Virus record (IMG/VR): IMGVR_UViG_3300028888_000110 | DNA length: 12,214 nucleotides | DNA from: a virus | Lineage: Duplodnaviria > Heunggongvirae > Uroviricota > Caudoviricetes | Strand: one strand, 5' to 3' | Part shown: in pieces, positions 1-12,214 of the stretch | How positions within the stretch are numbered: the first letter of the stretch is position 1 | Layout of the letters: each line of letters begins with the position of its first letter | Notes under the pieces: generated by a model | What the model was told of the DNA's origin: nothing | Databases searched by the model: none | What the model saw: the letters and a program-made list of their open reading frames with translations, nothing else | Made by a program: the position numbers and the translations under genes

Positions 1-1107
1 CGAGAGAGGATTAAGGCTATGGATAGTAAAGCTATGCTAGAAAGAATAAGCTGAACTAGCCTAGTGTGATGAGATATTATTACATTTAAACACAACTCAA
101 ATTGAACAGAACAAATATATTGTAATTGAAAATCTACAGGGTGTCGAATAGACAAAGTAGGGAAAATCTGAAGCACAGACAAGTGATGACCAAACTGGAC
201 TAATTGGATAGCTTGGTATGGGGGGGTGGATTGGAAAGAAATCTATAAATGGATTAAAGAAGAATTCCCATTTGTGTTGCCAGAGAAAAAAGAAGAAACG
301 AAGAGTGTGGACTCAATATTATCCGCCATTGATACAGATATTAATACAGAACTACACACATATTATTATCCGAAGGGATTTGAGAAATTTAATAGTTTCC
401 TTTCTTGAGAATTAGTCACCATCGTTGCCCCATCAAATAGCTGAAAGACAACATTTGCAATGGATATAATTAAAAGGAACACAGCCGAAGGAAGAAAATG
501 TTTCTACATTAACTGAGAGTTTAGGATTGAAACTGTATGGGTTAATAGATGGTTATGGAAAAATTGAAAGACTAAAGAGAGTTTGTGAGATAAAAATCCT
601 CTTACCCCAGAGGAAAGAGCTGATATGGAGAAATATGTAAAAGATAGTCTTGGGCAATTTTGATATGATTGTTCACCTATGTGATATAAACTAGAAGATT
701 TAGTACAGCTAATAACAGAAAAGACAAAAGAAGGATATGAGTTATTTGTTATTGACAGTCTATCAAAGATACAATGAAATTTAACCAATGAAGCAAGGAG
801 TCACCAAAATCAGACAATGGAGACATTCTTGGCCTTAGTGCAGAAACTAAATATAGCTGTCATATTATTACACCACACAAATAAATTCTGAAAGTTTGAA
901 GGTAGTCAGAAAATATTTGATTTCTCTAATGTGTTTATTACGATGAAGAAGTGCGAAGAAGATTTTGTGAAGATACCTTCAAGAGTGTTTAAACTTGAAA
1001 AAGATAAATATGTAAGTGATGTTGAACTAGAAATGTATTACGATATCAAAACAGGGACATACACAGAAAGCTTATCAGAGATTTCAGAAATGAGGAAAAA
1101 CTTTTAA
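1..1107 (+). CDS. DnaB-like (SF4/RecA-fold) replicative helicase, 5' end outside window
   Basis: Frame 1 is open from base 1 to TAA 1105-1107 when TGA=Gly. Motifs: ELVTIVAPSNS[TGA]KTTF (Walker A), YELFVIDSLSKI (Walker B), IAVILLHH and FEGSQKI (SF4 H3/H4-like). Absorbs track ORF 226..408. Confidence 0.88.
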
Positions 1108-1127
1108 TTGTTTAATTTAGGGAAGCG

Positions 1128-2186
1128 ATGAATGATTACAGTGAAGATTTCAAGGGGGTACGGTTCCCGAGAAACTTGTGGCTCGATAAAAGTATCAGCC
1201 TTATAGAAAAAGGCATACTTGTAGTGATTAAAAATTTAGATAAAGGGGATGAACATTGCTGGGCAACAAATAATTATCTGGCAGATTTTTTTCAATGCAA
1301 CTCTCGTACAATAATAAGAGCGATTTGACATTTAAAAGAATTGTGATATATAGAGGAGATTGAATGATGAAAGACTGGAGTATGTAGAAAATTAAGAGCG
1401 GTTATTGATATAGAGGACCCGTGACAAAATGTCACCCCTGACAAAATGTCACCCGTGACAAAATGTCATACGGGGGGTGACAAAATGTCACACCCCCCCG
1501 TGACAAAATGTCACCCTAATAATATAGTATATAATAATATAAATAATAATATAAGGCAAACAGAGAATTTTAGCAACGCTAACGCGTCGCCTTCCTCCTG
1601 TGTGTGTGATGTAGAGACTGGACTAGATAGTGAGACATACAACACAGCTAAAGCGAAACGCAAAACGAAGAAGCAGCAAAGATATGATGAGGTGATGAAT
1701 AGCACAGAATTTACTACAACTGTCCTCGAATGAATAACAAATGAAGTTGAGCAGGAAGAGATTAAAACCTTATGGAGCGAATATGTTGAACTAAGATGTA
1801 GTAAAGACTATAGAGCCTTAACTGATTGAGCTGTAAGAAGAAATCTCAAAGTTTTAGAATGAACAACCTTCCCTGAAAGGAGAGCTATTTTAGATAAGTC
1901 TGTTACTAAATGATGGACAGGTTTATTCCCGTTAAATGAGTACGACGTTAAACGTATCGAATGAGACCTAGCTAAGGTTGAATGAAGCGATGAATGGCTG
2001 TATGATAAAATCTTTACTACTAAATGTAAAGAAAAAGAAGATGAACTACCTGAACGAAGTACACACGACTTGCTTATGCAACTAGTACAGGAGTACTGAG
2101 AAGAGAGAGTTAAGAAAATTTACTATGAGAGAGTGAGGCCTAAGATAGAAGAAATCTATTGAATTAAGAGAGATTGGAAAAGTTAA
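1128..2186 (+). CDS. Phage replication initiator (lambda O-like architecture: N-terminal HTH, internal iterons), 352 aa
   Basis: One frame from ATG 1128 to TAA 2184-2186 with TGA=Gly, joining track ORFs 1128..1328 and 1446..1733. N-terminus FKGV[CGG=W]FPRNLWLD...CWATNNYLADFFQCNSRTIIRAIGHLKELGYI is typical of HTH phage initiators. C-terminal SVTK[TGA]WTGLFPL resembles a motif recurring in phage initiators. Adjacent to the helicase and contains iterons. Confidence 0.82.
1421..1514. repeat. Five 15-bp palindromic iterons GTGACA-AAA-TGTCAC (probable replication origin)
   Basis: Copies at 1421-1435, 1438-1452 (C at first base), 1455-1469 (T at last base), 1477-1491 and 1500-1514. Start-to-start spacing is 17, 17, 22, 23. 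Confidence 0.9.
1517..1554. other. AT-rich tract, probable DNA-unwinding element of the origin
   Basis: 38 nt with one G and no C, immediately after the last iteron, as in the lambda ori layout. Confidence 0.7.
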
Positions 2187-2454
2187 TTCCTCCCTAGAAA
2201 ATGGCGCTTTAAGAAAGAGCTCCTATTTCTCTTAAAATGGGTGCCCGCCTCTCCCTATGGGTTCCCTTCCCTTGGTGGGGCATTTCTTTGCGGGTCCTTT
2301 TTTATGTTTCCCTAAGGAGGGTTATTTTATGTTTCGTAAGAAGAGTGTTCCCTGTTTCTGTTTTTCGTAAGAAAGGTATAACACCCCAACAAAAAGCTAC
2401 AATAGGGGGGTTTGGGAGTCGCTACCCCCATTTTCGTAAAGATATTTTTTGACA

Positions 2455-2487
2455 AGCACCCTCGTTTTTTAGGTGCTACTTTTTTTT
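2455..2487 (+). terminator. Probable intrinsic terminator closing the replication module
   Basis: AGCACC (2455-2460) pairs with GGTGCT (2472-2477), followed by a T8 run (2480-2487). Confidence 0.55.
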
Positions 2488-2511
2488 GATATATATTTTT
2501 TTGATGCAGGC

Positions 2512-2539
2512 TTGACATTTTATAAAAATGTGATATAAT
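2512..2539 (+). promoter_or_regulatory. Consensus sigma70 promoter TTGACA-N16-TATAAT with extended -10 (TGn)
   Basis: TTGACA 2512-2517, TG 2531-2532, TATAAT 2534-2539. Confidence 0.8.
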
Positions 2540-2612
2540 ATGGGATTGTTTTCCCTTCAAAAGATTTCAACCTTTACAATATATACTTTTTTGAAAATGT
2601 CAAGCCGTATTT

Positions 2613-2655
2613 GAAAATTGACTTGAATTTGTATAGTAAAAAAATATTATACTAT
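2613..2655 (+). repeat. Promoter-like repeat copy 1 (degenerate, 19-nt spacer)
   Basis: GAAAATTGACTTGAATTTGTATAGTAAAAAAATATTATACTAT has the same core as copies 2-4. TTGAAT 2623-2628, TATACT 2648-2653. Confidence 0.75.
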
Positions 2656-2700
2656 TGTAAATATATTATATATATAATATATTGAAAAATAAAAATTTAT

Positions 2701-2763
2701 GAAAATTGACTTGCAATTGTATAGTAAAAAACTATACTATATATAGTCAAGTCAAAAGACTTG
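2701..2763 (+). promoter_or_regulatory. Promoter-like repeat copy 2 followed by a hairpin
   Basis: TTGCAA 2711-2716, N16, TATACT 2733-2738, then hairpin CAAGTC-AAAA-GACTTG (2748-2763). Confidence 0.7.
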
Positions 2764-2840
2764 AAAAATAGTAGTAAAAATTGCATAAAGCAAGCAAGTT
2801 TTACCGTAATTAAACTTGACTACATAAATTTTTTCAAGTA

Positions 2841-2904
2841 AAAATTGACTTGAAATTGTATAGTAAAAATATATACTATACATAGTCAAGAAAAACAACT
2901 TGAC
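2841..2904 (+). promoter_or_regulatory. Promoter-like repeat copy 3 with palindrome and 5' hairpin
   Basis: TTGAAA 2850-2855, N16, TATACT 2872-2877. Palindrome TGTATAGTA-N8-TACTATACA (2857-2882). Hairpin GTCAAG-N8-CTTGAC. Confidence 0.72.
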
Positions 2905-2949
2905 AAGAAAAACAAGAAAACAGCTTTATTTTTGCATAATTTTTCTATT

Positions 2950-3312
2950 ATGAAAACATTATCAAAAGTCAAGCTGTCAAGGGACTTTTTCCAAAACTCA
3001 ATTTTGGTATGAAATGATAAATTTCGTATTGACAATTTTAATCGTAAGGTAAAAATTGCAAAACGTGATTGTGATTTTTCTATGCCAAAAAAACAGGCTA
3101 GGGAACAGCAACTACGCCTTGACAGTTTTAGACGTAAAACAATTTATTGAAACAATTATTTTTTCAAGTGAAAAACTCAAGAAAAAAATTTTCTTGAAAA
3201 CAATATTTCACTTGCAAGAAAAAAAGATTTTGAAAATGTGTTTTCAAAAATAGCTTTTGAAAAAAGACAAGAAAAACGCAAGAAAAAAGCGTTTTCTAGA
3301 ATCTTTTGATAA
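2950..3312 (+). CDS. Small, highly basic hypothetical protein (120 aa)
   Basis: ATG 2950 to TAA 3310-3312 with no TAA/TAG over 120 codons in very AT-rich DNA, and four in-frame TGA. MKTLSKVKLSRDFFQNSILVGNDKF...KRQEKRKKKAFSRIFG. Lies directly downstream of promoter copy 3. Confidence 0.6.
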
Positions 3313-3331
3313 GGTGAAAAAAGTGAAAAAA

Positions 3332-3390
3332 GACTTGCAATTGTATAGTAAAAATATATACTATACATAGTCAAGAAAAACAACTTGACT
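3332..3390 (+). promoter_or_regulatory. Promoter-like repeat copy 4
   Basis: 3332-3389 is identical to 2847-2904 at 57/58 nt. TTGCAA 3335-3340, N16, TATACT 3357-3362. Hairpin TAGTCAAG-N8-CTTGACTA. Confidence 0.75.
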
Positions 3391-3419
3391 AGAAAAAAAC
3401 AAGCTAGACATGAATAGCT

Positions 3420-3880
3420 TTACGGAAATTTTTCCGATACCTGAAATATAGGTTTAGAATCGCAAGTTTTTCCTATTGCTTGCTATCAATAGGAATTACA
3501 AGGGGTTTTTGTAATTGCAAGATTACACCTATGTTATGGGGTATCGGTTTTTTTCGTATGAAAAAAAGTTATAACTTTTATGCAATGTAGCAACTGAATA
3601 GCAACGGTTGAAAGTGAATAGCCTCTACATTTTAGCTTAGTAAATACATAGACAATTCAAGTTCGTGTAGCGATAACTGAAATTTTGTGGGAACACCACT
3701 CAAAGCTACATATTTTTAGAGTTTGTAGAAAAAAGTAGGCGAAAGGCGAAGGGCTTGACTATGGTAAATATATGAGTTTTTGGGCTGTCGTTTCGTATGA
3801 TAGCCCTAAAACAAAAGCTCATTGCTGTCAAGGTAAGTCGACTAACTTGGAAGGTAGCGGACCTTTAGACCAAAGGAACT
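3420..3880 (+). ncRNA. Candidate structured RNA or long structured leader (boundaries approximate)
   Basis: No sizeable + strand ORF found even with TGA=Gly. Hairpins at 3423-3436, 3471-3494, 3494-3516 and 3772-3822, the last with G-U pairs that work only on the + strand. Confidence 0.35.
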
Positions 3881-3922
3881 ATCAAACAATGGGCTTTTGT
3901 TTTACATAGTAATTTTGCAGCT

Positions 3923-4147
3923 ATGGGAAAACTAAAGCAAATGAATTGGGAAGAATACAAGCACAAGGCTTGAGCTTCCAAACTCTGGGACAATAGGCTT
4001 CCAGATTTTTTGCAATACCTATATTGTAAAAAGCACAAGTATTTCAATGCTTGGACAAAAACTCTTGAATATTGGTTGAGAAAAAATTATGAAGAAAATG
4101 ATTACAAAATGCTTATGAAAAAAGCAAGAGTTTTATTTAGAGCATAA
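3923..4147 (+). CDS. Hypothetical protein (74 aa)
   Basis: MGKLKQMNWEEYKHKAGASKLWDNRLPDFLQYLY...ARVLFRA*, one in-frame TGA, T-rich leader, next gene starts 5 nt later. Confidence 0.72.
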
Positions 4148-4152
4148 CTAGA

Positions 4153-4299
4153 ATGCGAGTGATATTAGGCTTGAATTTGCTCTCATTTTTGGGAGTAGTT
4201 TTTTTGAAAACTAAATGGAGATTTGGTTTTCATCTTAGTTTGCTAGTTTATGTAGCAACATTGTATGGAATGCTTTATTACTATAACAAGGTATGCTAA
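4153..4299 (+). CDS. Small membrane protein (48 aa, two hydrophobic segments)
   Basis: M[CGA=W]VILGLNLLSFLGVVFLKTKWRFGFHLSLLVYVATLYGMLYYYNKVC*. The stop overlaps the next start (TAATG). Confidence 0.6.
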   Translation: MRVILGLNLLSFLGVVFLKTKWRFGFHLSLLVYVATLYGMLYYYNKVC

Positions 4300-4499
4300 T
4301 GAGATTACCAAAAGAAAACAAATCAAACACAATACAAGGTTGTTGTGTGTCGGAGGACGAAATGAAAGCTGAGAACGAGAGAGCTTTCATAAAAAGTTGC
4401 ATCGTTTGTATGGGTATAGAAGAACTTTGCGACTTGTTAGAAGAACTAGACATTAGTCGAGATGTGAAGAACGAACTAGAATATAGAGAAGACAATTAG
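4299..4499 (+). CDS. Hypothetical protein (66 aa)
   Basis: Track ORF 4293..4499. Start moved to ATG 4299 because of TAATG coupling to the upstream gene. Confidence 0.7.
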   Translation: MRLPKENKSNTIQGCCVSEDEMKAENERAFIKSCIVCMGIEELCDLLEELDISRDVKNELEYREDN

Positions 4500-4532
4500 T
4501 TTTATTCTCTAATGGAAATGAAAATGAGAATA
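4500..4532 (+). repeat. 33-bp perfect direct repeat copy 1 (leader plus first 7 codons MEMKMRI)
   Basis: TTTTATTCTCTAATGGAAATGAAAATGAGAATA, identical at 4787-4819. Confidence 0.95.
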
Positions 4533-4784
4533 GAGAAAAAAAGAAATGAGGTCGAGGTTGCTCGAACAAAGGAGAGCCAACACTTAAAGGCAGAGGTTAG
4601 ACAAATATGGAATGGAAAATGAGAAACATATTTTGGGCTAACAATAAAAACATTGAATAATGTTGCACTCGTGAATGAGTATTATACATTTCGTTGTGAG
4701 GCGGAGGCTTTAGCGAGATGATATCTACAATGATATGAGAAATGATACTTGGAATGAGAACGAGATTGATATGAATATAGATAA
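4512..4784 (+). CDS. Hypothetical protein (90 aa) with a C-terminal GxxxG repeat helix
   Basis: Open with TGA=Gly (six TGA). C-terminus EALARGYLQGYEKGYLEGEWDG places the TGA codons in a regular Gly repeat. Confidence 0.75.
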
Positions 4785-4786
4785 CA

Positions 4787-4819
4787 TTTTATTCTCTAAT
4801 GGAAATGAAAATGAGAATA
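4787..4819 (+). repeat. 33-bp perfect direct repeat copy 2
   Basis: Identical to 4500-4532. Confidence 0.95.
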
Positions 4820-5014
4820 AAGATACTAGACATTCAAAAGAATGAAGAAATCTGACTAAAGGTTAGAGGGTGAATTACAATAGAGAGAGCCTTAGCAATG
4901 GCGGAAATCTCAAGTTATAGAATGGTAATGAGAGAGAGAAATAGGGCTAGACTTTTAGTTTCGCCCAACTCTAAGCTAGAACAATGAGATATTGTTGTTG
5001 TGTGGGTTAGATAA
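4799..5014 (+). CDS. Probable ubiquitin-like (beta-grasp) paralogue without C-terminal Gly (71 aa)
   Basis: MEMKMRIKILDIQKNEEIGLKVRGGITIERALAMAEISS...SPNSKLEQGDIVVVWVR* aligns by eye with the downstream Ubl (ELPVDSTVRDAKIKAGISS...APDNAILDDGDILVV). Confidence 0.62.
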
Positions 5015-5021
5015 CATTGGC

Positions 5022-5053
5022 TTGAATTCTTATAGTGAATAGCTATAAGAATT
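5022..5053 (+). promoter_or_regulatory. Perfect 11-bp inverted repeat overlapping a possible promoter upstream of the Ubl gene
   Basis: AATTCTTATAG (5025-5035), 7-nt loop, CTATAAGAATT (5043-5053). TTGAAT 5022-5027, N16, TATAAG 5044-5049. Confidence 0.5.
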
Positions 5054-5097
5054 ATAACCCGTGTTGTCGGGGTTTTATATTATTATTTTGTGTAGAA

Positions 5098-5334
5098 ATG
5101 AGAGTTGAAAACACAAATGCTTCTACTATTAGAGTAGAAATCAAACAAATGGGAACACCATTTGGAACAACTATTGAATTGCCAGTTGATAGCACTGTAA
5201 GAGATGCTAAAATTAAGGCTGGAATTTCATCTGATGCAGATGTTCGCTACAACAATGACATTGCACCAGACAATGCTATCTTAGATGACGGAGACATTCT
5301 CGTTGTTCAAGCAAGCAAATATACTCAAGGTTAA
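5098..5334 (+). CDS. Ubiquitin-like (beta-grasp) modifier ending in Gly (78 aa, ...SKYTQG)
   Basis: MRVENTNASTIRVEIKQMGTPFGTTIELPVDSTVRDAKIKAGISSDADVRYNNDIAPDNAILDDGDILVVQASKYTQG* shows the Ubl/ThiS/MoaD pattern (STVxD helix, LxDGDxL strand, free C-terminal G). It precedes E2, E1 and JAB genes. Confidence 0.85.
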   Translation: MRVENTNASTIRVEIKQMGTPFGTTIELPVDSTVRDAKIKAGISSDADVRYNNDIAPDNAILDDGDILVVQASKYTQG

Positions 5335-5385
5335 TGCTTGAATATTTGCTGGCAAATAAAAGGCATTGGCAAGTAGTATTTAGAA

Positions 5386-5413
5386 AGGCTCGCTCTTAGG
5401 AGTGGGCTTTTTT
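5386..5413 (+). terminator. Intrinsic terminator between the Ubl and E2 genes
   Basis: AGGCTCGCTC-TTAG-GAGTGGGCTT 10-bp stem (with G-U pairs) plus T run to 5413. Confidence 0.75.
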
Positions 5414-5455
5414 ATAATGCCACTTGTGGCAGATTTATTTTATTTATTTGCAGCT

Positions 5456-6598
5456 GTGAGAGTTAATGGACAACAAGTAGCTAGGAGTTGGACTCAATTT
5501 GAAAGCCAATTACCTCAGTGAAAAATCGAGCCTGTTAGTGTTGAGGTAAAAGAAAACGACACTGAACTTGAAGGCTACCCAGTCTTTGAGAAGCTGGTGA
5601 AATTGTCTGGCATTGACTCAACCCCAGAAGAGGTTATCAAAGATTTGTGATTTGAAAAATTCACAAACAGTCTTTGAGAGCTAAAGTTCTGGAGTGAAGG
5701 GGACCGTCTATTAGAAGATTGGTTCTGATTATGCCTAAGATTTCTCCAGAGAAATTATCATAGGCGTCGAGCCTATGTAAAGGTGGGCGATAGAGAAATC
5801 TATTGACTGGTATCAGTTGGCTGAAGGAGATTCCATATGAAGACTCCTGAATGAACACTGATTATGCCATCAATGTGTATTGCTGACACCTTCACAGGAG
5901 AAAACAAGTATGTTTTCTTCCCTATGAGTGCCTTGCTAAAAGAAGAAGAGCAGGCATTATTTGAGTTGTATAAAACAACTAGACCTTCTTCTGATACTTC
6001 ACAACTTGAAATGCAGATTATGTCTTTGTTAGAGAAACTAACAATGGCAAGGTCGCAAAAGCCTACAATTTCTGAAACGAATAATGTTTTTTCAGACATT
6101 GAAGAAATGTGTAGAGCAAGTTGAACAATTAAAAGACTTTCAGTAGTAGATTGAAGGTTGGTTTTAGAATTTGATTGGAGAAAGGTAATTGATACGGACC
6201 ATAGCTATGGACCTATGGTGTTGCCACCTTGTAAGTTGCTAATTGATTTGAGAAATTACACAGTGAGATGAGAATGAAGATATCACCCACATATTATGGG
6301 AGATAATTCTTTGTGTATGGGTTGAACATTAACAGACCTAGTTCAGAAATGTATCACCAATAGAGATTTGAAAACTTTAGTAGGTTGAATGATTGACTTT
6401 GGAAATAGTTGGACAAGTAGCGATGCAATGGGTTGCGATAGATGTCCAGCAGGTAGAATTGAAAGATATTATGAGAATGAATGAATAAATTGGGAGAATA
6501 TCCCAATAGATTTGCACGACATAGCAAGAACTTTTGAAGATTGTAGTTATAGCACAGACACTTTGTGAAGCACTTTTAATTCTTTAATCGAAGAATAA
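5456..6598 (+). CDS. E2/UBC-like conjugating enzyme with a long N-terminal extension and coiled coil (380 aa)
   Basis: GTG 5456 to TAA 6596-6598 with TGA=Gly, including track ORF 5864..6124. HPHIMGDNSLC (His277-Cys287; TGT 6314-6316) has the same spacing as the canonical E2 motif HPNINSNGSIC. The GTG start is supported by a TTTGCAGCT leader identical to that of the 3923 gene. Confidence 0.75.
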
Positions 6599-7155
6599 TG
6601 CACACAGAAGAAGAACAAGTAAAACCTCTTTTTGGTGTGGAAAGTCTTTGAGCATTGAATGAATGAGAGTATGCTTATGTAGGAAAATGTTGATGAGATT
6701 TCTTTTTCATCAAAAAAAGATGAGATGAATATCTTTTTAAGGAAATTCAAACCTTAAATGATAGTGATATGTCAGATAGAATGCGAGAAGATTTTGATGA
6801 CCACGAGGCTTGGGTTGATGCAGTTAGAAATGGGGACACAGATGAAAGTTATGATAGTTGGAGAGATAATATTGATATTCGAGATGAATGTTCTCCTTGA
6901 GATTATCATGACTGTCCTATTGAGATAGTAAGAATTCTCTATGACTTAGGTTTTTGGGAAGATGAAGATAGTGATGAGTATGATTGATATTACTTAGATG
7001 ATTATTATACTTACACTATAACTAGACAGAACATAGAACAGCTCTATAATAAGATAGACACGAATGAAGATTTTAACCAAAAGCTATGGGACGATATAGA
7101 GAAAAAGTTTTGATATAATCAAGTAGAATTTTTAGCTGCTGAACCTATAAGATAA
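6598..7155 (+). CDS. Very acidic hypothetical protein inside the Ubl operon (185 aa)
   Basis: TAATG-coupled to E2 and ends 2 nt before E1. My count is 49 D+E against about 16 K+R. Confidence 0.8.
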
Positions 7156-7157
7156 TC

Positions 7158-7814
7158 ATGCCAGAAAGAAATTTTGATAGGGGGTTAGATATGTTTAACC
7201 CTAATCTTTTTAGAGATAAAAAGATTTGAATCATAGGTGCTGGTGGAATTGGGAGCAATTCAGCCTATGTGTTGAGTAAAATGGGGCTAAAGGTAAAGGT
7301 ATGCGACTTCGATGAGGTTGATGATGTGAATACAAGTAGCCAATTTTATTCAATGGACCAGCTTTGAAAACCTAAAGTAGAAATGTTAAAACAAAATATA
7401 AAACAAATGTGTGATGAAGATATTGAGATTGTTAATAGCAAGTATGAGCCTTGAATGTTTGATGACTGCGACATTTTAATCTTAGCTTTAGATAGCTTGG
7501 CAGTTAGAAAACAAGTGGTGGAAACTTGTAAAGATACTCAATTTATTCTTGACACAAGAATGGTTAAAAAGATAGCACAGATAAATCTATTGTATTGAAT
7601 GCAAAGGAAGACACGAATGGAAAAAGAATGGAGAGAAGATGCTGATGCAAATAATGCAGGTACTAGGTGTACAGAAAAAGCTGTGGCATTCAATGCGCTA
7701 GGTATGGCTGCATTGGTTGGTAGTATTGTAGCTGATAAGTTGAATGGTAAAGAATTGAAATATCAATACACCTTAGATTTAGAGAGCTATAATTTATATG
7801 TTTTTAATTCATAG
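7158..7814 (+). CDS. E1-like ThiF/MoeB-family adenylyltransferase (218 aa)
   Basis: KI[TGA]IIGAGGIGS, VCDFDEVDDVNTSSQ, DQL[TGA]KPKVE, ILALDS, LDTRM, and candidate catalytic Cys171 in GTRCTEK. No CxxC Zn motifs. Includes track ORF 7599..7814. Confidence 0.92.
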
Positions 7815-7815
7815 T

Positions 7816-9075
7816 ATGAGAGAGTGAACAGCAAAATTAGAGCCTATTACTCAAGCAGATATAAAACCTATTGACTACAAGGAAATCAATGAGAAAATCT
7901 GATTGAATAATATTGATGTTCATCAAGCTCCTGTCTTGACAATCTCTAGCTGGTGCCATAATCATATCAGAGTTTTACATAAAAAGTATCCAAACACAGA
8001 GTGGACAGCTATATGTAAGATTGTAAATAAATGAGAATGACAATTTGAAATGGTTGATATGATTCACCCAGAACAAAAGACAACAAGCTGAGAGGTTGAA
8101 ACGACAGATGATTGAATGAAATGGGCTATTGACCACTTGTTAGAACGTGGTGAAGACTTATGAGAATGGAACTGTGTCCTACATTCTCATCATTCAATGG
8201 GTTGCTTTTGGTCGCAGACAGATGACAATGCAAGGTTGTCTATGAACGACTGAAGAATGCTTATGTGGGCTGTGGTGACAGCTTATAAGTGAGAAGAAAT
8301 AGATTATAAAGGTTGCCTTAACTTTTATAAACCATACCCTATTGAAATCGATTGTGATATAGAATACTACACAGAAGATTTATATTGACAAAGGGAAGAA
8401 TGGGGAGAATTTGTGAAGAATAGAACACAAGAAATCTATAATGAAATGGTATCAACAGATGAGAAATTGAAGAGTTTAAAATGTGAATATGATTATGATA
8501 ACTTGCTAAAATATCTAGGAATAGATATAACAGATGAGCTAAGGGTTAATTCAGATGTAGTAGCACAGAAAATGCCCTGCCCTGAATATGAAGAAAGGCT
8601 GAAAGAAATTATGGAAGAGGCTAAGGAAAAAGTTCAGGAAGAGACAGGTGCTCCGATAGATAATGAACTCCTAGCTTGGAGTGAATGGAGTAATTCTTTA
8701 CTAGAGCAACTAGATGAAGCAAGAAAAATCCCAGCGAAAGAAACCACTCCTAAATATAACGACTATAGTTATAGTAAGTGGAATGATTATGATTTCTATG
8801 GGTATCCTAAGGTAGAAAATAAAACAACAGAAAGCAAAACAGAATACAAAACAAAAAGTAAATACGATGAAGAGTATGAAAACTATTATCAGTTCAATGC
8901 TATCGAATACCCAACTAAGAATAAGCTAGTTGAAACTTGGGGGTTCGATGAGAATATGAAATTTAGAGTGAATGATGATAATCTTTGGGAAGTATATAAT
9001 ACAACATTTCATCAATGGCTATATGTAGGAGATGAATATGAAGATATGTATGCATATCCAGATGATTATCTATAA
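7816..9075 (+). CDS. JAB/JAMM (MPN+) metallo-isopeptidase with a long C-terminal extension (419 aa)
   Basis: Glu62 (NTEWTA) and HSHHSMGCFWSQTD = H123-x-H125-x7-S133-x2-D136, a complete JAMM signature. Includes track ORF 8413..9075. Confidence 0.9.
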
Positions 9076-9106
9076 TTTAATTTGTTTTTATAATTTAATT
9101 TGTTTT
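9071..9106 (+). repeat. 18-bp perfect tandem duplication in the gene junction
   Basis: TATAATTTAATTTGTTTT at 9071-9088 and 9089-9106. Confidence 0.9.
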
Positions 9107-9110
9107 AACT

Positions 9111-9506
9111 ATGGAAGAACTAAAGATTAAAGCTTTGTCAGGTATTGTAGATATGCTACAATCAGGAATGGATAACGTCCCACCTTATGTGTGAGATTTG
9201 CTACATAGATATATTGTAGAAGAATGTATAACTAATGGAATTATAGTGTTGTCGTTTATAATTATTTATATAGTAGTTCGTTTGATGTTGAGCTATATGA
9301 AAAAAGAATACAAAAAAGATTATGACAAATGAGATATAAGAGAATATCAATATAGAGATAACATCGCTTGAATAAAATTGTTAAATTATATTGTATTGAC
9401 AATATGTATTATTATTGTTATAGTCTGTATTAGTCAATCAGTTAGTGTAATAATAACTCCTGAGATTGAAATGATATCAGATATTATGCCGTCCAGTTCT
9501 TGTTAA
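9111..9506 (+). CDS. Hypothetical membrane protein with two transmembrane segments (131 aa)
   Basis: Open with TGA=Gly. Hydrophobic runs GIIVLSFIIIYIVV and LLNYIVLTICIIIVIVCI. Confidence 0.78.
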
Positions 9507-9516
9507 TTATATTTAG

Positions 9517-9623
9517 GAGTGGGCTTAAATGGGGGTAGAAAAACTAAACGGATTTCCGTTGTTCCGTTTCATAGCTGCAATATAAACAACATTCTCTATC
9601 CCCACCTAAGCCTACTCTTTTTT
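9517..9623 (+). ncRNA. ~100-nt intergenic RNA hairpin with terminator-like T tail
   Basis: GAGTGGGCTTA (9517-9527) pairs with TAAGCCTACTC (9607-9617), and TGGGGGTAGA (9530-9539) with TCTATCCCCA (9595-9604). Two G-U pairs favour the + strand. T6 follows. Confidence 0.55.
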
Positions 9624-9644
9624 AGATTATTTATGTTTATAAAT

Positions 9645-9869
9645 ATGAGATTAGTAGAGCCTAAGAAAAAAACCATAGAGGTTAGAATAGTTGAGCTAAA
9701 AGATTGAAGCTCTCGATATGTTGTTCAACAGAAGAAGAAATTTTTATGGCGAGAATACCGAGATAATGTGTGAGTATATCATAGCCTTTATGATGCAAAG
9801 GAGAAGAAAGAATTTTTAGAAGAAACAAATTGAGAAGGTTATAAAGTTCTTAAAGATGATGACTTTTAG
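9645..9869 (+). CDS. Hypothetical protein (74 aa; alternative ATG at 9633)
   Basis: MRLVEPKKKTIEVRIVELKDGSSWYVVQQKKKFLWWEYWD...KDDDF* (TGA=G, CGA=W). Confidence 0.72.
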
Positions 9870-9886
9870 ATTGTTATTATATAAAA

Positions 9887-10087
9887 ATGCACCAATGAGA
9901 ATGTCCTTGTTGTCATAGTGGCAACTTAGAATATGGAACTATTGAGTTCTATGATGACCAATGTTATTTCCCACGAGAGTGTCCTGACTGTGGAGCTTCT
10001 TGAGAAGAATGGTATTCAATGGAGTTCGTTTGTCATGACAATGTTATGGAGTGAGATAAAAACAAAAAGAAAGATGATGATTTTTAG
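9887..10087 (+). CDS. Small zinc-ribbon protein (66 aa)
   Basis: CPCCHSGNLEY...YFP[CGA=W]ECPDCGASGEEWY has two CxxC-type knuckles. Different frame from track ORF 9933..10121. Confidence 0.78.
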
Positions 10088-10104
10088 ATTATTTATAAAT
10101 TCAA

Positions 10105-10725
10105 ATGCCAAACTACTGTAATTGACATGTAATCATTTATTGATTATCAAAAGAGAAAAAAGATAGGGTAGGTAGGCGAGCAAAAAATGGAGAACTTTGT
10201 AAGCAGATAATACCTTATCCTAAAGAGGTAAAGGAAGACTTGGAAATGGAACAGAAATGTCATAGCGAAGAAAATAAATTAAGAGAGAGATGACGGAATA
10301 AAGAAGAATATGAAAAGCTAAAAGAAAAATACCCATACAAACAGCTGTGGTATGATTGGGAATACAAAAATCGATGAACAAAATGGGGACTATGTGATTG
10401 TTCAGTTCATAACAATGAACATTCATTAGAATTAAATTTCTGGACAGCACGGAGTCCTGTCATACCTGTGTTTAAGGAGCTAAGTAGAAAATATAAATGT
10501 GTAGTTGAGTATGATTATGATGAGCCTTGAAATTGCTTTAGTGGTAGAATAAAATGGGAGAATTGAGTGGAGGTTTATGATGATAGATTTGATGATTGAT
10601 ACTATGGAGAGTGAGTAGAATGTGTCAAGTGCCACTGAATATATGACTGAACTAATGAAGAAGATTGGTCTGATATAGAAAATCATATCTGTTTTAATTG
10701 TTGAGAAGAAGAAAATGAGAGATAG
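10105..10725 (+). CDS. YubB/DUF1281 (Api92-like) ferredoxin-like domain protein with C-terminal CxxC pairs (206 aa)
   Basis: MPNYCN start, WYDWEYKN[CGA][TGA]TKW (family NWGTKW), FWTA[CGG]SP (family TAWSP), YDEP[TGA]NCFSG (family EPGxxFxG). C-terminal CVKC...CFNC. Confidence 0.78.
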
Positions 10726-10927
10726 TAATCCATTATGGTTAAAGATAGAAACAGACTATTGATTGCTGTTGTCTGCTTATGAAAGATGCTACAATATATT
10801 AAAGGCAGTTTGACATTTTTCTGAAGAAGAACTTGACTTAATCGTATCTAAGCCAAAAGTATTCTCTGAAGATAACTTTTATTATAAAGAGGAACTAGAG
10901 AAAGCTCATAAAGATTTACATAATTAG
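10715..10927 (+). CDS. Hypothetical protein (70 aa)
   Basis: ATG 10715 to TAG 10925-10927 with TGA=Gly, overlapping the upstream stop region. Confidence 0.62.
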
Positions 10928-10936
10928 TATCTAAAG

Positions 10937-11476
10937 ATGAAGAACATTAAAACTTTTTTCCAAATGATGATACAAATCTTAAGAGAGGAAAGCGATTGAG
11001 ATTTAATGTATTACTTGGAAAGTATCAACACACCAGAGCAAGCCCTTGAGGTAATTAAAACTCTTAGAAATAAGCTAGTCGATAAGGGGCAGCAGGAGTT
11101 AGATAAGGAAATGAAAAAATATAATTTCATTTCTAAGGAAAATTTAATAGGGACATTCGCTACAATAGTAGAGAAACAAAGGGGATACCCATTATGAATG
11201 TGAGAGTACTCTGACATAGAAGATTGGGCTAAGGCTTGGGCAGATGATAATGGATATGCTCGACTCTTTACAGAAGAAGAACCACACTCCTATGAAGATG
11301 AATTGTTTAGTTATCTCAACCACCTACAATTTGATACCTATGATGAGTTGTGTTCTACAATTCGTAATTGGTTTAGAGATGAAAAACATATGGAGATAAA
11401 AGATGATGAATGTATGGAGTTTGCCAGCGACTTTGTAGATAAAAAGGAGCTATATGATATTAGTTATGATGAATAA
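10937..11476 (+). CDS. Acidic hypothetical protein (179 aa)
   Basis: Extends track ORF 11006..11197 in both directions through TGA codons to TAA 11474-11476. Confidence 0.72.
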
Positions 11477-11504
11477 TTTTATATTATTTATTACAAATAT
11501 TAAA

Positions 11505-11909
11505 ATGAAAAGATTGTATGTAGTTTATGGTCCAGACGATAGACCATTTGCAGAGACAGAAAGATTAAGGTTTGCTTATGACCAGGCACTAGAATGTATC
11601 CATAATAACTGATGACCTATATCAATAGATATTTATTTGTGGGAATGAAGAAGATGATATAGGCGAGAATGTTCTTATGGAGATTTTTATTTTATTGACA
11701 AAAGGGGTGAGGCAATTCTCTCAGAAGATTTGTTAAATATGTGAGTGATTCGAAAGAATATTATTTCTTGCGAGACAGAAGAAGAATTAAAAAAGTTTGT
11801 AGATATAGCTCAATTATTTGAGCTTGAGTTTAATGACTATTCTAAAGATGTTTATAGTCGTTTTTATTCTTTAAATGCAAAAAGGAGATGAGAAAAATCA
11901 CAGAGTTAG
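11505..11909 (+). CDS. Hypothetical protein (134 aa)
   Basis: ATG 11505 to TAG 11907-11909 with TGA=Gly. AT-rich leader. Confidence 0.7.
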
Positions 11910-12214
11910 CGGCAGATAAGTTCTTCAATATGGAGAACTTTAGGAGAGATAATACTGCGGTCTATCATACGCCTGGAGAGGTGGAAATGGAATTGTTTGG
12001 GAATGTGATTGCTAGGTATCATATCCGTGAGTGAGTAATTGAATTGTTTGATTGATGACATCAAACCCCTACGACAAAAGAAAGGCTCAACTGAATCCTT
12101 TCTAAAATGGAACGATGATATATTTATCAGCTAGCTTATCATTGGTATTATAAAGATGAACGCTGAAAAGTTCGCCCATTTAATAAAGGTATTGCTAGAA
12201 GTATTTTAGTTTAT
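11888..12214 (+). CDS. Phage-type hypothetical protein, 3' end outside window
   Basis: MRKITELAADKFFN...DNTAV...LFGNVIA...DGGHQTPTTKERLNGIL...IYQ..HWY resembles from memory a small phage early-protein family (MRKIT...TTKERLNG). Function unknown. Confidence 0.72.

What the first reader, a model, noticed from the sequence alone, without database searches (positions are those of the whole stretch)
1..12214. Triple codon reassignment: TGA=Gly plus CGA/CGG=Trp, pointing to an Absconditabacteria (SR1) phage
Seen: TGA fills conserved Gly positions (Walker A SNS-G-KTT, ThiF QL-G-KPK, EP-G-xxFxG). CGA/CGG fill positions where Trp is the family consensus: CGG 1161 (FKGV-W-FP), CGA 9974 (YFP-W-EC), CGA 10372 (N-W-GTKW), CGG 10450 (TA-W-SP). 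Arg is otherwise mainly AGA/AGG/CGT/CGC. Established: UGA=Gly (table 25) is used by Absconditabacteria and Gracilibacteria, and CGA/CGG=Trp has been reported for Absconditabacteria (Codetta survey, Shulgina and Eddy). Inference: the virus is adapted to the doubly altered host code, so both table 11 and table 25 annotations mis-translate it.
Basis: partly seen in the sequence, partly recalled or inferred. Interest (0 to 1): 0.75.

Follow-up and report, generated by a model that had tools for sequence, protein, structure and literature searches.

The report
Phage written in Absconditabacteria's three-change code
This 12-kb stretch of a sheep-gut phage reads TGA as glycine and the arginine codons CGA and CGG as tryptophan, which is the code predicted for Absconditabacteria (SR1); the reading is well supported but is an expected extension of known biology.

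Summary
The window has 125 in-frame TGA, 19 CGA and 6 CGG.

Seventeen CGA/CGG sites can be aligned codon by codon to seven related contigs. Ten have TGG in at least one relative, and none has another Arg codon or Lys. The 119 AGA/AGG/CGT/CGC sites behave as arginine: 111 pair with Arg codons and 29 with Lys (Fisher p about 1e-10 to 1e-16).

In 149 diverse homologues of the DUF1281 protein, CGA 10372 faces Trp in 145 and CGG 10450 faces Trp in 148. Four TGA sites face Gly in 132-145 of 149. CGG 1161 faces Trp in standard-code phage initiators. CGA 9974 has only weak support, one distant homologue with Tyr.

TGA=Gly beats TGA=Trp in all five Pfam families hit. No tRNA for these codons was found in the window or in the relatives' stretches read, so host tRNAs are presumably used.

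The SR1 host is inferred from the code and the ruminant-gut habitat, not shown directly. The code was published for the hosts in 2021, and code-25 SR1 phages in 2023. This scan has already noted the same code in three other phage genomes. I class it as a new member of a known kind.

The parts
1..1107 (+). 3' part of a primase-helicase gene (AAA_25/DnaB_C; phrog_239), 17 in-frame TGA. It has CGA at 1 and 145, and the Walker A reads SNS-[TGA]-KTT.
   Evidence: CGA 1 is TGG in L007. CGA 145 is CGA/CGG in four relatives. AAA_25 scores 42 bits with TGA=Gly and 29 with TGA=Trp.
1128..2186 (+). Replication initiator (HTH_36; PHROG replication initiation O-like). It has CGG at 1161 and CGA at 2055.
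   Evidence: At site 1161, seven more distant homologues (P0062-P0068) read FKGV-W; the one whose DNA was read, P0065 on L008, translates by table 11 with TGG there. Site 2055 is TGA in three relatives and TGG in L012.
2187..3922 (.). Mostly non-coding spacer with repeated 77-nt promoter-like boxes. The ORFs 2237-2677 and 2845-3312 here are doubtful, so CGG 2291 is not counted as coding.
   Evidence: Low-complexity translations and repeats.
4512..4784 (+). Small gene with CGA at 4563 and 4761. Neither site could be tested because no orthologue was found.
5017..5334 (+). Ubiquitin-like protein ending in Gln-Gly, with CGG at 5068.
   Evidence: The CGG is conserved as CGG in rel34.
5402..6598 (+). 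398-aa protein of unknown family, with CGA at 5768.
   Evidence: Site 5768 is TGG in L003 and L019, CGG in rel34 and CGA in L010.
6598..7155 (+). 185-aa protein with CGA at 6784 and 6880.
   Evidence: Site 6784 is TGG in L003. Site 6880 is TGG in L003, L010 and L019.
7158..7814 (+). ThiF/E1-like protein with CGA at 7614. The motif QL-[TGA]-KPK lies here.
   Evidence: Site 7614 is TGG in L003, L010 and L019. ThiF scores 65.1 bits with TGA=Gly and 60.3 with TGA=Trp.
7798..9075 (+). 425-aa protein with a JAB-type HxH...S..D motif. It has 13 TGG and no CGA/CGG.
   Evidence: Five of its TGG codons (8002, 8122, 8266, 8401, 8986) are CGA or CGG in relatives.
9519..9869 (+). Small gene whose likely start is near 9645. 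CGA lies at 9714, 9750 and 9759; CGG 9549 is probably upstream of the real start. None of these could be tested.
   Evidence: no homologue found.
9887..10087 (+). 66-aa zinc-ribbon protein with CGA at 9974 (YFP-x-EC).
   Evidence: The only homologue, in the uncultured huge phage LR756501, has Tyr at this position and Gly opposite both TGA codons that the match covers.
10105..10725 (+). DUF1281/Api92-like protein with CGA at 10177 and 10372, CGG at 10294 and 10450, and 11 TGA.
   Evidence: In 149 representative homologues, site 10372 is W in 145 and site 10450 is W in 148. Site 10177 is A/V/I/L and site 10294 is L/M/V. TGA 10141, 10375, 10528 and 10564 are G in 132-145 of 149. Deferribacter plasmid pDF308 reads ENWGTKW and STAWSPP. 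DUF1281_C scores 35.0 bits under table 4, 44.1 under table 25 and 52.3 with CGA/CGG=W.
10937..11476 (+). 179-aa protein with CGA at 11261.
   Evidence: The site is CGA in rel34 and TAT (Tyr) in L019.
11454..11909 (+). About 134-151-aa protein with CGA at 11664 and 11751.
   Evidence: Site 11751 is TGG in L019. Site 11664 is CAC (His) in L019.
11888..12214 (+). Kyano_Gp96-family protein, cut by the window end, with CGA at 12113 and a [TGA][TGA] pair at the family's invariant Gly-Gly.
   Evidence: Standard-code homologues have L/N/N at 12113, which is uninformative, and GG opposite the two TGA. The family scores 65.3 bits with TGA=Gly and 52.4 with TGA=Trp.

Best explanation
The window is the replication and early-gene region of a tailed phage from the ruminant gut. 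Its genes are written in the variant code predicted for Absconditabacteria: TGA = Gly, CGA and CGG = Trp, TAA/TAG the only stops, and AGA/AGG/CGT/CGC still Arg. The codon meanings are shown here. It is inferred that the phage carries no decoder of its own for these codons and relies on the host's Gly-tRNA(UCA), on Trp-accepting tRNAs that read CGA/CGG, and on the host lacking release factor 2. Its proteins could then be made correctly only in a cell with that code. CGA/CGG make up about 28% of the window's Trp codons, so the phage uses the reassigned codons freely rather than avoiding them. The host assignment to Absconditabacteria is also inferred, from the match of the code and from the habitat.
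For: 1) ORF structure. Table 25 gives long contiguous + strand genes and table 11 does not.

2) Codon-level alignment to seven related contigs. Window CGA/CGG pair with CGA/CGG 26 times, TGG 17, TGA 3, and Y/H/Q/N once each, and never with AGA/AGG/CGT/CGC or Lys. Window TGG pairs with CGA/CGG 21 times. Other Arg codons pair with Arg codons 280 times, with Lys 54 times and with CGA/CGG once. TGA pairs with GGN 75 times. By site, the counts are 10/17 versus 1/119 for a TGG partner, and 0/17 versus 111/119 for an Arg partner (p 5e-10 and 6e-16).

3) Likelihood from partner residues. For CGA/CGG, W beats Y by 49 nats and R by 79. For TGA, G beats S by 123 nats and W by 232.

4) Homologues outside the recoded clade. 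In DUF1281, W stands in 145/149 and 148/149 homologues at 10372 and 10450, and G in 132-145/149 at four TGA sites. Deferribacter pDF308 reads NWGTKW and TAWSP. Homologous initiators outside this clade read FKGV-W at 1161; the one whose DNA was read translates by table 11. Cyanophage and Vibrio-phage gp96 have GG opposite TGA-TGA.

5) Pfam scores. They rise from table 4 to table 25 in all five families. CGG=W adds 8.2 bits to DUF1281_C.

6) tRNAs. There is none in the window. Relatives carry only Tyr-like, Gln and Cys tRNAs.

7) Literature. The same three changes are predicted for Absconditabacteria (PMC8629427).

8) Habitat. The DNA occurs in sheep, goat and bovine gut metagenomes, and Absconditabacteria are reported from the rumen.

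9) Phage identity. The window has phage-type replication genes and a Kyano_Gp96 homologue. An 82-kb syntenic relative has portal/adaptor-like and tail-fibre-like genes.
Against: Eight of the 25 CGA/CGG codons have no alignable homologue: 4563, 4761, 9549, 9714, 9750, 9759, 9974 within the clade, and 2291 in a doubtful ORF. Three sites are only conserved as CGA/CGG (145, 5068, 12113), and site 12113 faces L/N in standard-code homologues, so they say nothing either way. Site 2055 faces TGA (Gly) in three relatives. One relative's CGA faces a window AGA at 6278. CGA/CGG=W slightly lowers two Pfam scores, by 0.5 and 0.8 bits. The relatives share ancestry, so pair counts overstate the number of independent events; site-level counts were used to limit this. 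No host genome, CRISPR spacer or prophage link was obtained. The only hit in species genomes is a 6.3-kb contig binned with a Methanobrevibacter MAG. No protein-level data exist.
Confidence: 0.87

Rival explanations
1. The window uses plain table 25: TGA = Gly, with CGA/CGG still Arg. The CGA/CGG-to-TGG correspondences would then be real Arg/Trp replacements.
For: Table 25 already opens all frames. Site 12113 and a few others are not Trp positions in distant homologues. One CGA in relative L010 faces a window AGA.
Against: None of 17 sites exchanges with any of the four other Arg codons or with Lys, and 10 of 17 exchange with TGG. W stands in 145/149 and 148/149 distant homologues. R is 79 nats worse than W.
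Confidence: 0.03
2. The window uses table 4, with TGA = Trp, as public gene callers assumed for the relatives.
For: Database proteins of the relatives match only 'with TGA=W', which reflects the caller's choice and is not evidence.
Against: TGA exchanges with GGN 75 times and never with TGG. G stands in 132-145/149 homologues at four TGA sites. All five Pfam families score 4.8-13 bits lower under table 4. G beats W by 232 nats.
Confidence: 0.01
3. The reassignment is mixed or context-dependent. Most CGA/CGG are Trp, but some genes or sites in the window are still read or written as Arg, as earlier scan notes suggest for a few genes of SR1 genomes.
For: Eight sites are untested and three are uninformative. 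Site 6278 shows AGA against CGA in one relative. Earlier notes e1-2924061 and e1-4032846 report standard-code gene sets in SR1 bacteria (unchecked).
Against: No tested site in any of the ten genes with data shows an Arg or Lys partner. Both codons are individually supported: 9 CGA sites have a TGG partner, and of the CGG sites 2 have a TGG partner and 1161 faces Trp in standard-code homologues.
Confidence: 0.06
4. The code is as described, but the host is not Absconditabacteria. It could be a Gracilibacteria-type or still unknown lineage with the same code, or the phage could supply its own decoding tRNAs elsewhere in its roughly 76-kb genome.
For: No spacer, prophage or co-binning link to SR1 was obtained. 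Some Gracilibacteria are predicted to read CGG as Trp (PMC8629427). Relatives carry tRNA genes, one with an aberrant anticodon loop.
Against: CGA as well as CGG is Trp here, which is reported only for Absconditabacteria. None of the tRNAs found in the relatives' stretches read (rel34 whole, about 34 kb; parts of the other contigs) has a UCG, CCG or UCA anticodon.
Confidence: 0.15

Closest known systems
Genetic code predicted for Absconditabacteria (SR1): UGA = Gly plus CGA/CGG = Trp (Shulgina and Eddy, eLife 2021, PMC8629427; restated in NAR 2026, PMC13092985)
   Same: The same three codon meanings apply. The GC content is low (33%). AGA is the main Arg codon. CGU/CGC are kept as Arg.
   Different: Here the code is seen in a phage, not a bacterium. 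CGA and CGG are used more often: about 58 and 12 per 10,000 codons. The paper reports under 37 and under 7 per 10,000 for most host genomes, but measured on Pfam-aligned codons, so the comparison is rough. The host tRNAs could not be examined here.
Code-25 phages and prophages predicted to infect Absconditabacteria or Gracilibacteria (Liu et al., mBio 2023, PMC10746230)
   Same: These are phages dense in in-frame TGA that share the host's alternative code and carry no obvious code-switch machinery.
   Different: That paper treats only TGA (code 25 against code 11); CGA and CGG are not mentioned in its text. Its host links come from CRISPR spacers, which I do not have. Its samples are mainly human-associated, whereas this DNA is from the ruminant gut.
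Phages adapted to a host sense-codon reassignment: AGG = Met phages from baboon gut (Shulgina and Eddy 2021)
   Same: The phage follows the host's reassigned arginine-family codon and lacks the matching tRNA, so it presumably relies on host tRNAs.
   Different: The codons, amino acid and host clade differ. In addition, a stop-codon reassignment is combined with the sense-codon change here.
NCBI translation table 25
   Same: TGA = Gly, and TAA/TAG are the stops.
   Different: Table 25 keeps CGA/CGG as Arg, which mistranslates 23-25 residues in this window. No NCBI table combines the three changes, to my knowledge.

Membership tests
Absconditabacteria-type code (UGA=Gly, CGA/CGG=Trp) | In-frame TGA at conserved glycine positions | tested here: met
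   G stands in 132-145 of 149 homologues at four TGA sites. GG stands opposite TGA-TGA in gp96. There are 75 TGA-to-GGN exchanges with relatives. Pfam scores gain 4.8-13 bits over TGA=Trp.
Absconditabacteria-type code (UGA=Gly, CGA/CGG=Trp) | CGA at tryptophan positions | tested here: met
   Site 10372 is W in 145/149 homologues. Nine CGA sites have TGG in a relative: 1, 2055, 5768, 6784, 6880, 7614, 10177, 10372 and 11751.
Absconditabacteria-type code (UGA=Gly, CGA/CGG=Trp) | CGG at tryptophan positions | tested here: met
   Site 10450 is W in 148/149 homologues. Site 1161 is W in standard-code initiators. Sites 10294 and 10450 are TGG in relatives. Only 4-6 CGG codons exist in the window.
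Absconditabacteria-type code (UGA=Gly, CGA/CGG=Trp) | AGA/AGG/CGU/CGC remain arginine | tested here: met
   Of 119 such sites, 111 pair with Arg codons, 29 with Lys and 1 with TGG. AGA 10720 faces R in 107 of 143 homologues.
Absconditabacteria-type code (UGA=Gly, CGA/CGG=Trp) | Decoding machinery: tRNA(UCA) with Gly identity, tRNA(UCG/CCG) with Trp identity, and no release factor 2 | not testable with these tools
   No host genome is held. No such tRNA lies in the window or in the relatives' stretches read.
NCBI table 25 | All codons other than TGA keep their standard meaning | tested here: not met
   CGA/CGG behave as Trp.
Tailed phage (Caudoviricetes) | Hallmark virion and packaging genes (portal, terminase, capsid, tail) | tested here: inconclusive
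None lies in the window. The 82-kb syntenic relative has a 675-aa protein hitting the head-tail adaptor and portal PHROGs (E 1e-9 and 2e-6) and a tail-fibre-like protein.
Phage of Absconditabacteria (host assignment) | Direct host link: a CRISPR spacer match, a prophage in an SR1 genome, or physical linkage | not tested
   The species-genome scan returned only one contig, in a Methanobrevibacter MAG. SR1 genomes could not be addressed without a handle. The host is inferred from the code and habitat only.

The most novel reading that the evidence does not exclude
Phages of this lineage use CGA/CGG for more than a quarter of their Trp codons, which is several-fold the frequency reported for most Absconditabacteria genomes. 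If that holds genome-wide and against the true host, the phages are further along in adopting the reassigned codons than their hosts. That would make them an independent evolutionary record of a sense-codon reassignment. It would also bear on whether code change acts as a barrier to phage or merely as a shared dialect.
Probability: 0.15. Interest if true: 0.7.

Novelty: new member of a known kind. Interest (0 to 1): 0.45.

Why it matters
The CGA/CGG-to-Trp change in Absconditabacteria is still a computational prediction. Phage genes evolve separately from host genes yet must be read by the same ribosomes, so they give independent support for it.

There is also a practical point. No standard translation table fits these genomes. 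Public protein sets translated the relatives with TGA=Trp, which puts Trp at every TGA-coded glycine (over half of the window's glycines) and Arg at about a quarter of the tryptophans. That weakens homology searches, structure prediction and host prediction for a whole group of ruminant-gut phages.

The combination of three codon changes is a specific marker that narrows the host to one bacterial lineage without needing CRISPR spacers.

Tried and rejected
- **Source contig:** no whole genome is held for the window. Nothing similar is in INPHARED by megablast. IMG/VR gave nothing by a protein scan, an exact 42-mer or a second protein scan.
- **Species genomes:** the scan gave only one 6.3-kb contig in a Methanobrevibacter MAG, read as mis-binning and not as a host signal.
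- **SR1 genomes:** I could not reach them. 'of' needs a handle, and none of my loci lies in a held genome.
- **NCBI assembly:** the assembly that holds relative L007 (GCA_009725035.1) could not be identified from the literature.
- **PDB:** a sequence search for the DUF1281 protein gave nothing significant.
- **Small ORFs:** tblastn against phages found nothing for 9645-9866 or 11454-11906. Relaxed BLAST found no orthologues of the small ORFs 4512-4784, 9111-9506, 9519-9869 and 10715-10927 in the fetched relatives. Their CGA codons therefore stay untested.
- **Kyano_Gp96 site 12113:** it turned out to be a variable position and is uninformative.
- **ARAGORN at low stringency:** it 'finds' tRNAs with introns of 141-1016 nt in the window. 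These were rejected as false positives.
- **PHROGs:** no match for most large minus-strand proteins of the relatives.
- **Unused tools:** Read laying, structure prediction and complex prediction were not used, because nothing in the question depended on them.

Full report
**What is in the window.** The window is 12,214 bases with 33% GC. Under table 11 it has no ORF above 220 aa. Under table 25 it resolves into a tight series of + strand genes ending in TAA or TAG. Five genes hit Pfam families:
- a primase-helicase fragment at 1-1107 (AAA_25/DnaB_C);
- an HTH_36 replication initiator at 1128-2186;
- a ThiF/E1-like protein at 7158-7814;
- a DUF1281/Api92-like protein at 10105-10725;
- a Kyano_Gp96 homologue at 11888-12214.

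PHROGs calls the first two DNA primase/helicase and replication initiation protein. In-frame codon counts are TGA 125, GGN 98, TGG 61, CGA 19, CGG 6, CGT 17, CGC 8, AGA 105 and AGG 37. Dropping two doubtful ORFs and trimming two starts gives CGA 19, CGG 4 and TGG 58.

**Test 1: codon-level comparison with relatives.** Protein searches found a sizeable clade of related contigs. I fetched the DNA of seven:
- a 34.4-kb ENA contig, reassembled from L001 and L006;
- L003, L007, L010, L011 and L019;
- L012, a 6.3-kb contig.

They are syntenic with the window at 45-96% protein identity.

I aligned orthologues and read the codons under each aligned residue:

| Window codon class | Aligned pairs | What the relatives have |
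|---|---|---|
| CGA/CGG | 50 | CGA/CGG 26, TGG 17, TGA 3, and Y, H, Q, N once each; never AGA/AGG/CGT/CGC or Lys |
| TGG | 180 | TGG 145, CGA/CGG 21 |
| AGA/AGG/CGT/CGC | 394 | Arg codons 280, Lys 54, CGA/CGG 1, TGG 1 |
| TGA | 325 | TGA 205, GGN 75, never TGG |

The relatives share ancestry, so I also counted sites rather than pairs:

| Site class | Sites with data | TGG in a relative | Other Arg codon | Lys |
|---|---|---|---|---|
| CGA/CGG | 17 | 10 | 0 | 0 |
| Other Arg codons | 119 | 1 | 111 | 29 |

Fisher p is 5e-10 for the TGG contrast and 6e-16 for the Arg contrast. CGA at position 1 is also TGG in L007. A simple BLOSUM62 likelihood over the non-identical partners puts Trp first for CGA/CGG, 49 nats ahead of Tyr and 79 ahead of Arg. 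It puts Gly first for TGA, 123 nats ahead of Ser and 232 ahead of Trp.

**Test 2: homologues outside the recoded clade.** A profile search of 1.84 billion representatives with the DUF1281 protein found 17,002 relatives. I aligned 149 of the best 150:

| Window site | Codon | Residues in the 149 homologues |
|---|---|---|
| 10372 | CGA | W 145 |
| 10450 | CGG | W 148 |
| 10177 | CGA | A/V/I/L |
| 10294 | CGG | L/M/V |
| 10141, 10375, 10528, 10564 | TGA | G in 132-145 |

Other homologues outside the recoded clade agree:
- A plasmid gene of Deferribacter desulfuricans reads ENWGTKW, STAWSPP and HEPGEGF at the corresponding places.
- At CGG 1161, seven more distant initiators read FKGV-W. The one whose DNA I read, P0065 on L008, translates by table 11 with TGG there.
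- In the gp96 family, Vibrio, Pseudomonas and cyanophage proteins have the invariant Gly-Gly opposite the window's TGA-TGA. CGA 12113 falls on a variable position (L/N/N), which says nothing either way.
- For CGA 9974, the only homologue I found is an ORF in the 735-kb uncultured phage LR756501. It has Tyr there and Gly opposite both TGA codons that the match covers. This is weak support, limited to an aromatic residue.

**Test 3: Pfam scores under three codes.**

| Family | Table 4 (TGA=Trp) | Table 25 (TGA=Gly) | Table 25 plus CGA/CGG=Trp |
|---|---|---|---|
| DUF1281_C | 35.0 | 44.1 | 52.3 |
| HTH_36 | 30.8 | 39.6 | 39.7 |
| ThiF | 60.3 | 65.1 | 64.6 |
| AAA_25 | 29 | 42 | 42 |
| Kyano_Gp96 | 52.4 | 65.3 | 64.5 |

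TGA=Gly wins everywhere. CGG=Trp matters where the codon lies inside a matched domain at a conserved column, and is neutral elsewhere.

**What does not fit neatly.**
- Site 2055 (CGA) faces TGA in three relatives and TGG in a fourth. It is a Gly/Trp-variable position rather than a conserved Trp.
- One CGA in relative L010 faces a window AGA at 6278, next to a Tyr/Arg swap.
- Eight CGA/CGG codons have no alignable homologue, and three are only conserved as CGA/CGG.
- No tested site points to Arg, so I see no sign of the 'standard-code exceptions' that earlier notes of this scan report for some SR1 genes. Untested sites leave a small margin.

**How it most likely works.** There is no tRNA in the window. 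The relatives' stretches that I read hold:
- a tRNA-Tyr-like gene with an insert in its anticodon loop;
- a weak tRNA-like element;
- tRNA-Gln(UUG) and tRNA-Cys(GCA).

None has a UCG, CCG or UCA anticodon. The phage therefore presumably depends on host tRNAs and on a host without release factor 2. This step is inferred, not shown. With over a hundred in-frame TGA codons spread over nearly all of its genes, it could not be expressed in a standard-code cell.

**Host and habitat.** Shulgina and Eddy predicted exactly this combination, UGA=Gly with both CGA and CGG = Trp, for Absconditabacteria. Some Gracilibacteria are predicted to read CGG only as Trp (PMC8629427; restated in PMC13092985). The window's DNA is held almost whole by one sheep-gut run. 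Parts or relatives occur in other sheep, goat and bovine gut metagenomes. Absconditabacteria are reported from the rumen. I have no spacer, prophage or linkage evidence. The one hit in species genomes is a small contig binned with a Methanobrevibacter MAG, which I take as mis-binning. The host call therefore rests on the code.

**Phage identity.** The window itself holds replication and accessory genes only. An 82-kb relative that shares the primase-helicase at 91% identity carries several large divergently transcribed genes:
- a 2,852-aa giant protein;
- a 675-aa protein matching head-tail adaptor and portal PHROGs;
- a tail-fibre-like protein.

Earlier notes of this scan place TerL and morphogenesis genes in the 64 kb preceding this window on the same contig. 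I did not check that.

**Comparison with what is known, and novelty.** The code is published for the host clade. Phages that share code 25 with Absconditabacteria are published too (Liu et al. 2023, PMC10746230), but that paper does not mention CGA or CGG. The only paper in the searchable library that combines Absconditabacteria, phage, CGG, tryptophan and glycine is Shulgina and Eddy, which discusses phages only for AGG=Met. The extension to SR1-type phages therefore seems unreported in that library, though it is what one would expect of a phage using host tRNAs. This scan has already reached the same conclusion on three other phage genomes (e1-1843470, e1-1841093, e1-4462552). I class it as a new member of a known kind, of moderate interest.

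One detail may be worth following. CGA/CGG make up about 28% of Trp codons here, roughly 58 and 12 per 10,000 codons. That is above the under-37 and under-7 per 10,000 quoted for most host genomes. The comparison is rough, because the published figures are for Pfam-aligned codons.

Noticed in passing
window 4799-9075: This looks like a ubiquitin-like conjugation cassette. It comprises a small beta-grasp-like protein ending in Gln-Gly (5017-5334), a paralogue without the Gly tail (4799-5014), two proteins of unknown family, a ThiF/E1-like enzyme (7158-7814) and a 425-aa protein with a JAB-type HSHHS...S..D motif (7798-9075). It is syntenic in L001, L003, L010 and L019. It was already noted by another reader (e1-5385987).
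   Followed up: partly
window 2612-3397 (also 4160-4179): Three to five copies of a 36-77-nt box (TTGACTTGnAATTGTATAGTAAAAA...TATACTATA) lie in a 1.7-kb mostly non-coding stretch after the initiator gene. The box resembles a -35/-10 promoter and could also be origin iterons. The table-25 ORFs 2237-2677 and 2845-3312 that overlap it look like non-genes.
   Followed up: partly
L001 14911-15001 and 15053-15124; L019 12668-12819: Relatives carry tRNA genes. One is a class-II tRNA-Tyr(GUA)-like gene with a 9-nt insert in the anticodon loop (Rfam tRNA 40.8 bits; missed by default ARAGORN). A second is a weak tRNA-like element with a 9-nt anticodon loop (29.6 bits). L019 has tRNA-Gln(UUG) and tRNA-Cys(GCA). 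None reads CGA, CGG or TGA. The first may match the tRNA-like cluster noted elsewhere in this genome (e1-1849037).
   Followed up: partly
L001, L003, L007, L010, L011, L019 (public records): Public gene calls for all these relatives reproduce only with TGA=Trp (table 4). Their database proteins therefore carry Trp at every TGA-coded glycine and Arg at every CGA/CGG-coded tryptophan. In alignments this shows up as false W columns.
   Followed up: yes
L012 (NZ_JAUNXX010000081.1, 6,340 bp): A contig encoding a 79%-identical primase-helicase, written in the same code, is binned in a Methanobrevibacter MAG. This is almost certainly a binning contaminant from the same gut community.
   Followed up: no
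window 2055: This single site is CGA in the window and several database relatives, TGA (Gly) in L007, L010 and L011, GGN in others and TGG in L012. It is a Gly/Trp-variable position where the one-step TGA-to-CGA change swaps Gly for Trp under this code.
   Followed up: partly
window 9887-10087 and 10530-10725: The 66-aa zinc-ribbon protein weakly resembles the C-terminal CxxC...CxxC extension of the neighbouring DUF1281 protein (E 0.02 against the relative's copy). Most DUF1281 homologues lack that extension.
   Followed up: no
L022 1312-9870 (82-kb relative): A giant 2,852-aa gene lies next to a 1,067-aa gene, upstream of and divergent from the replication operon, with no PHROG or Pfam hit. 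The counterpart in this window's own genome was described in an earlier report (e1-1849031).
   Followed up: no
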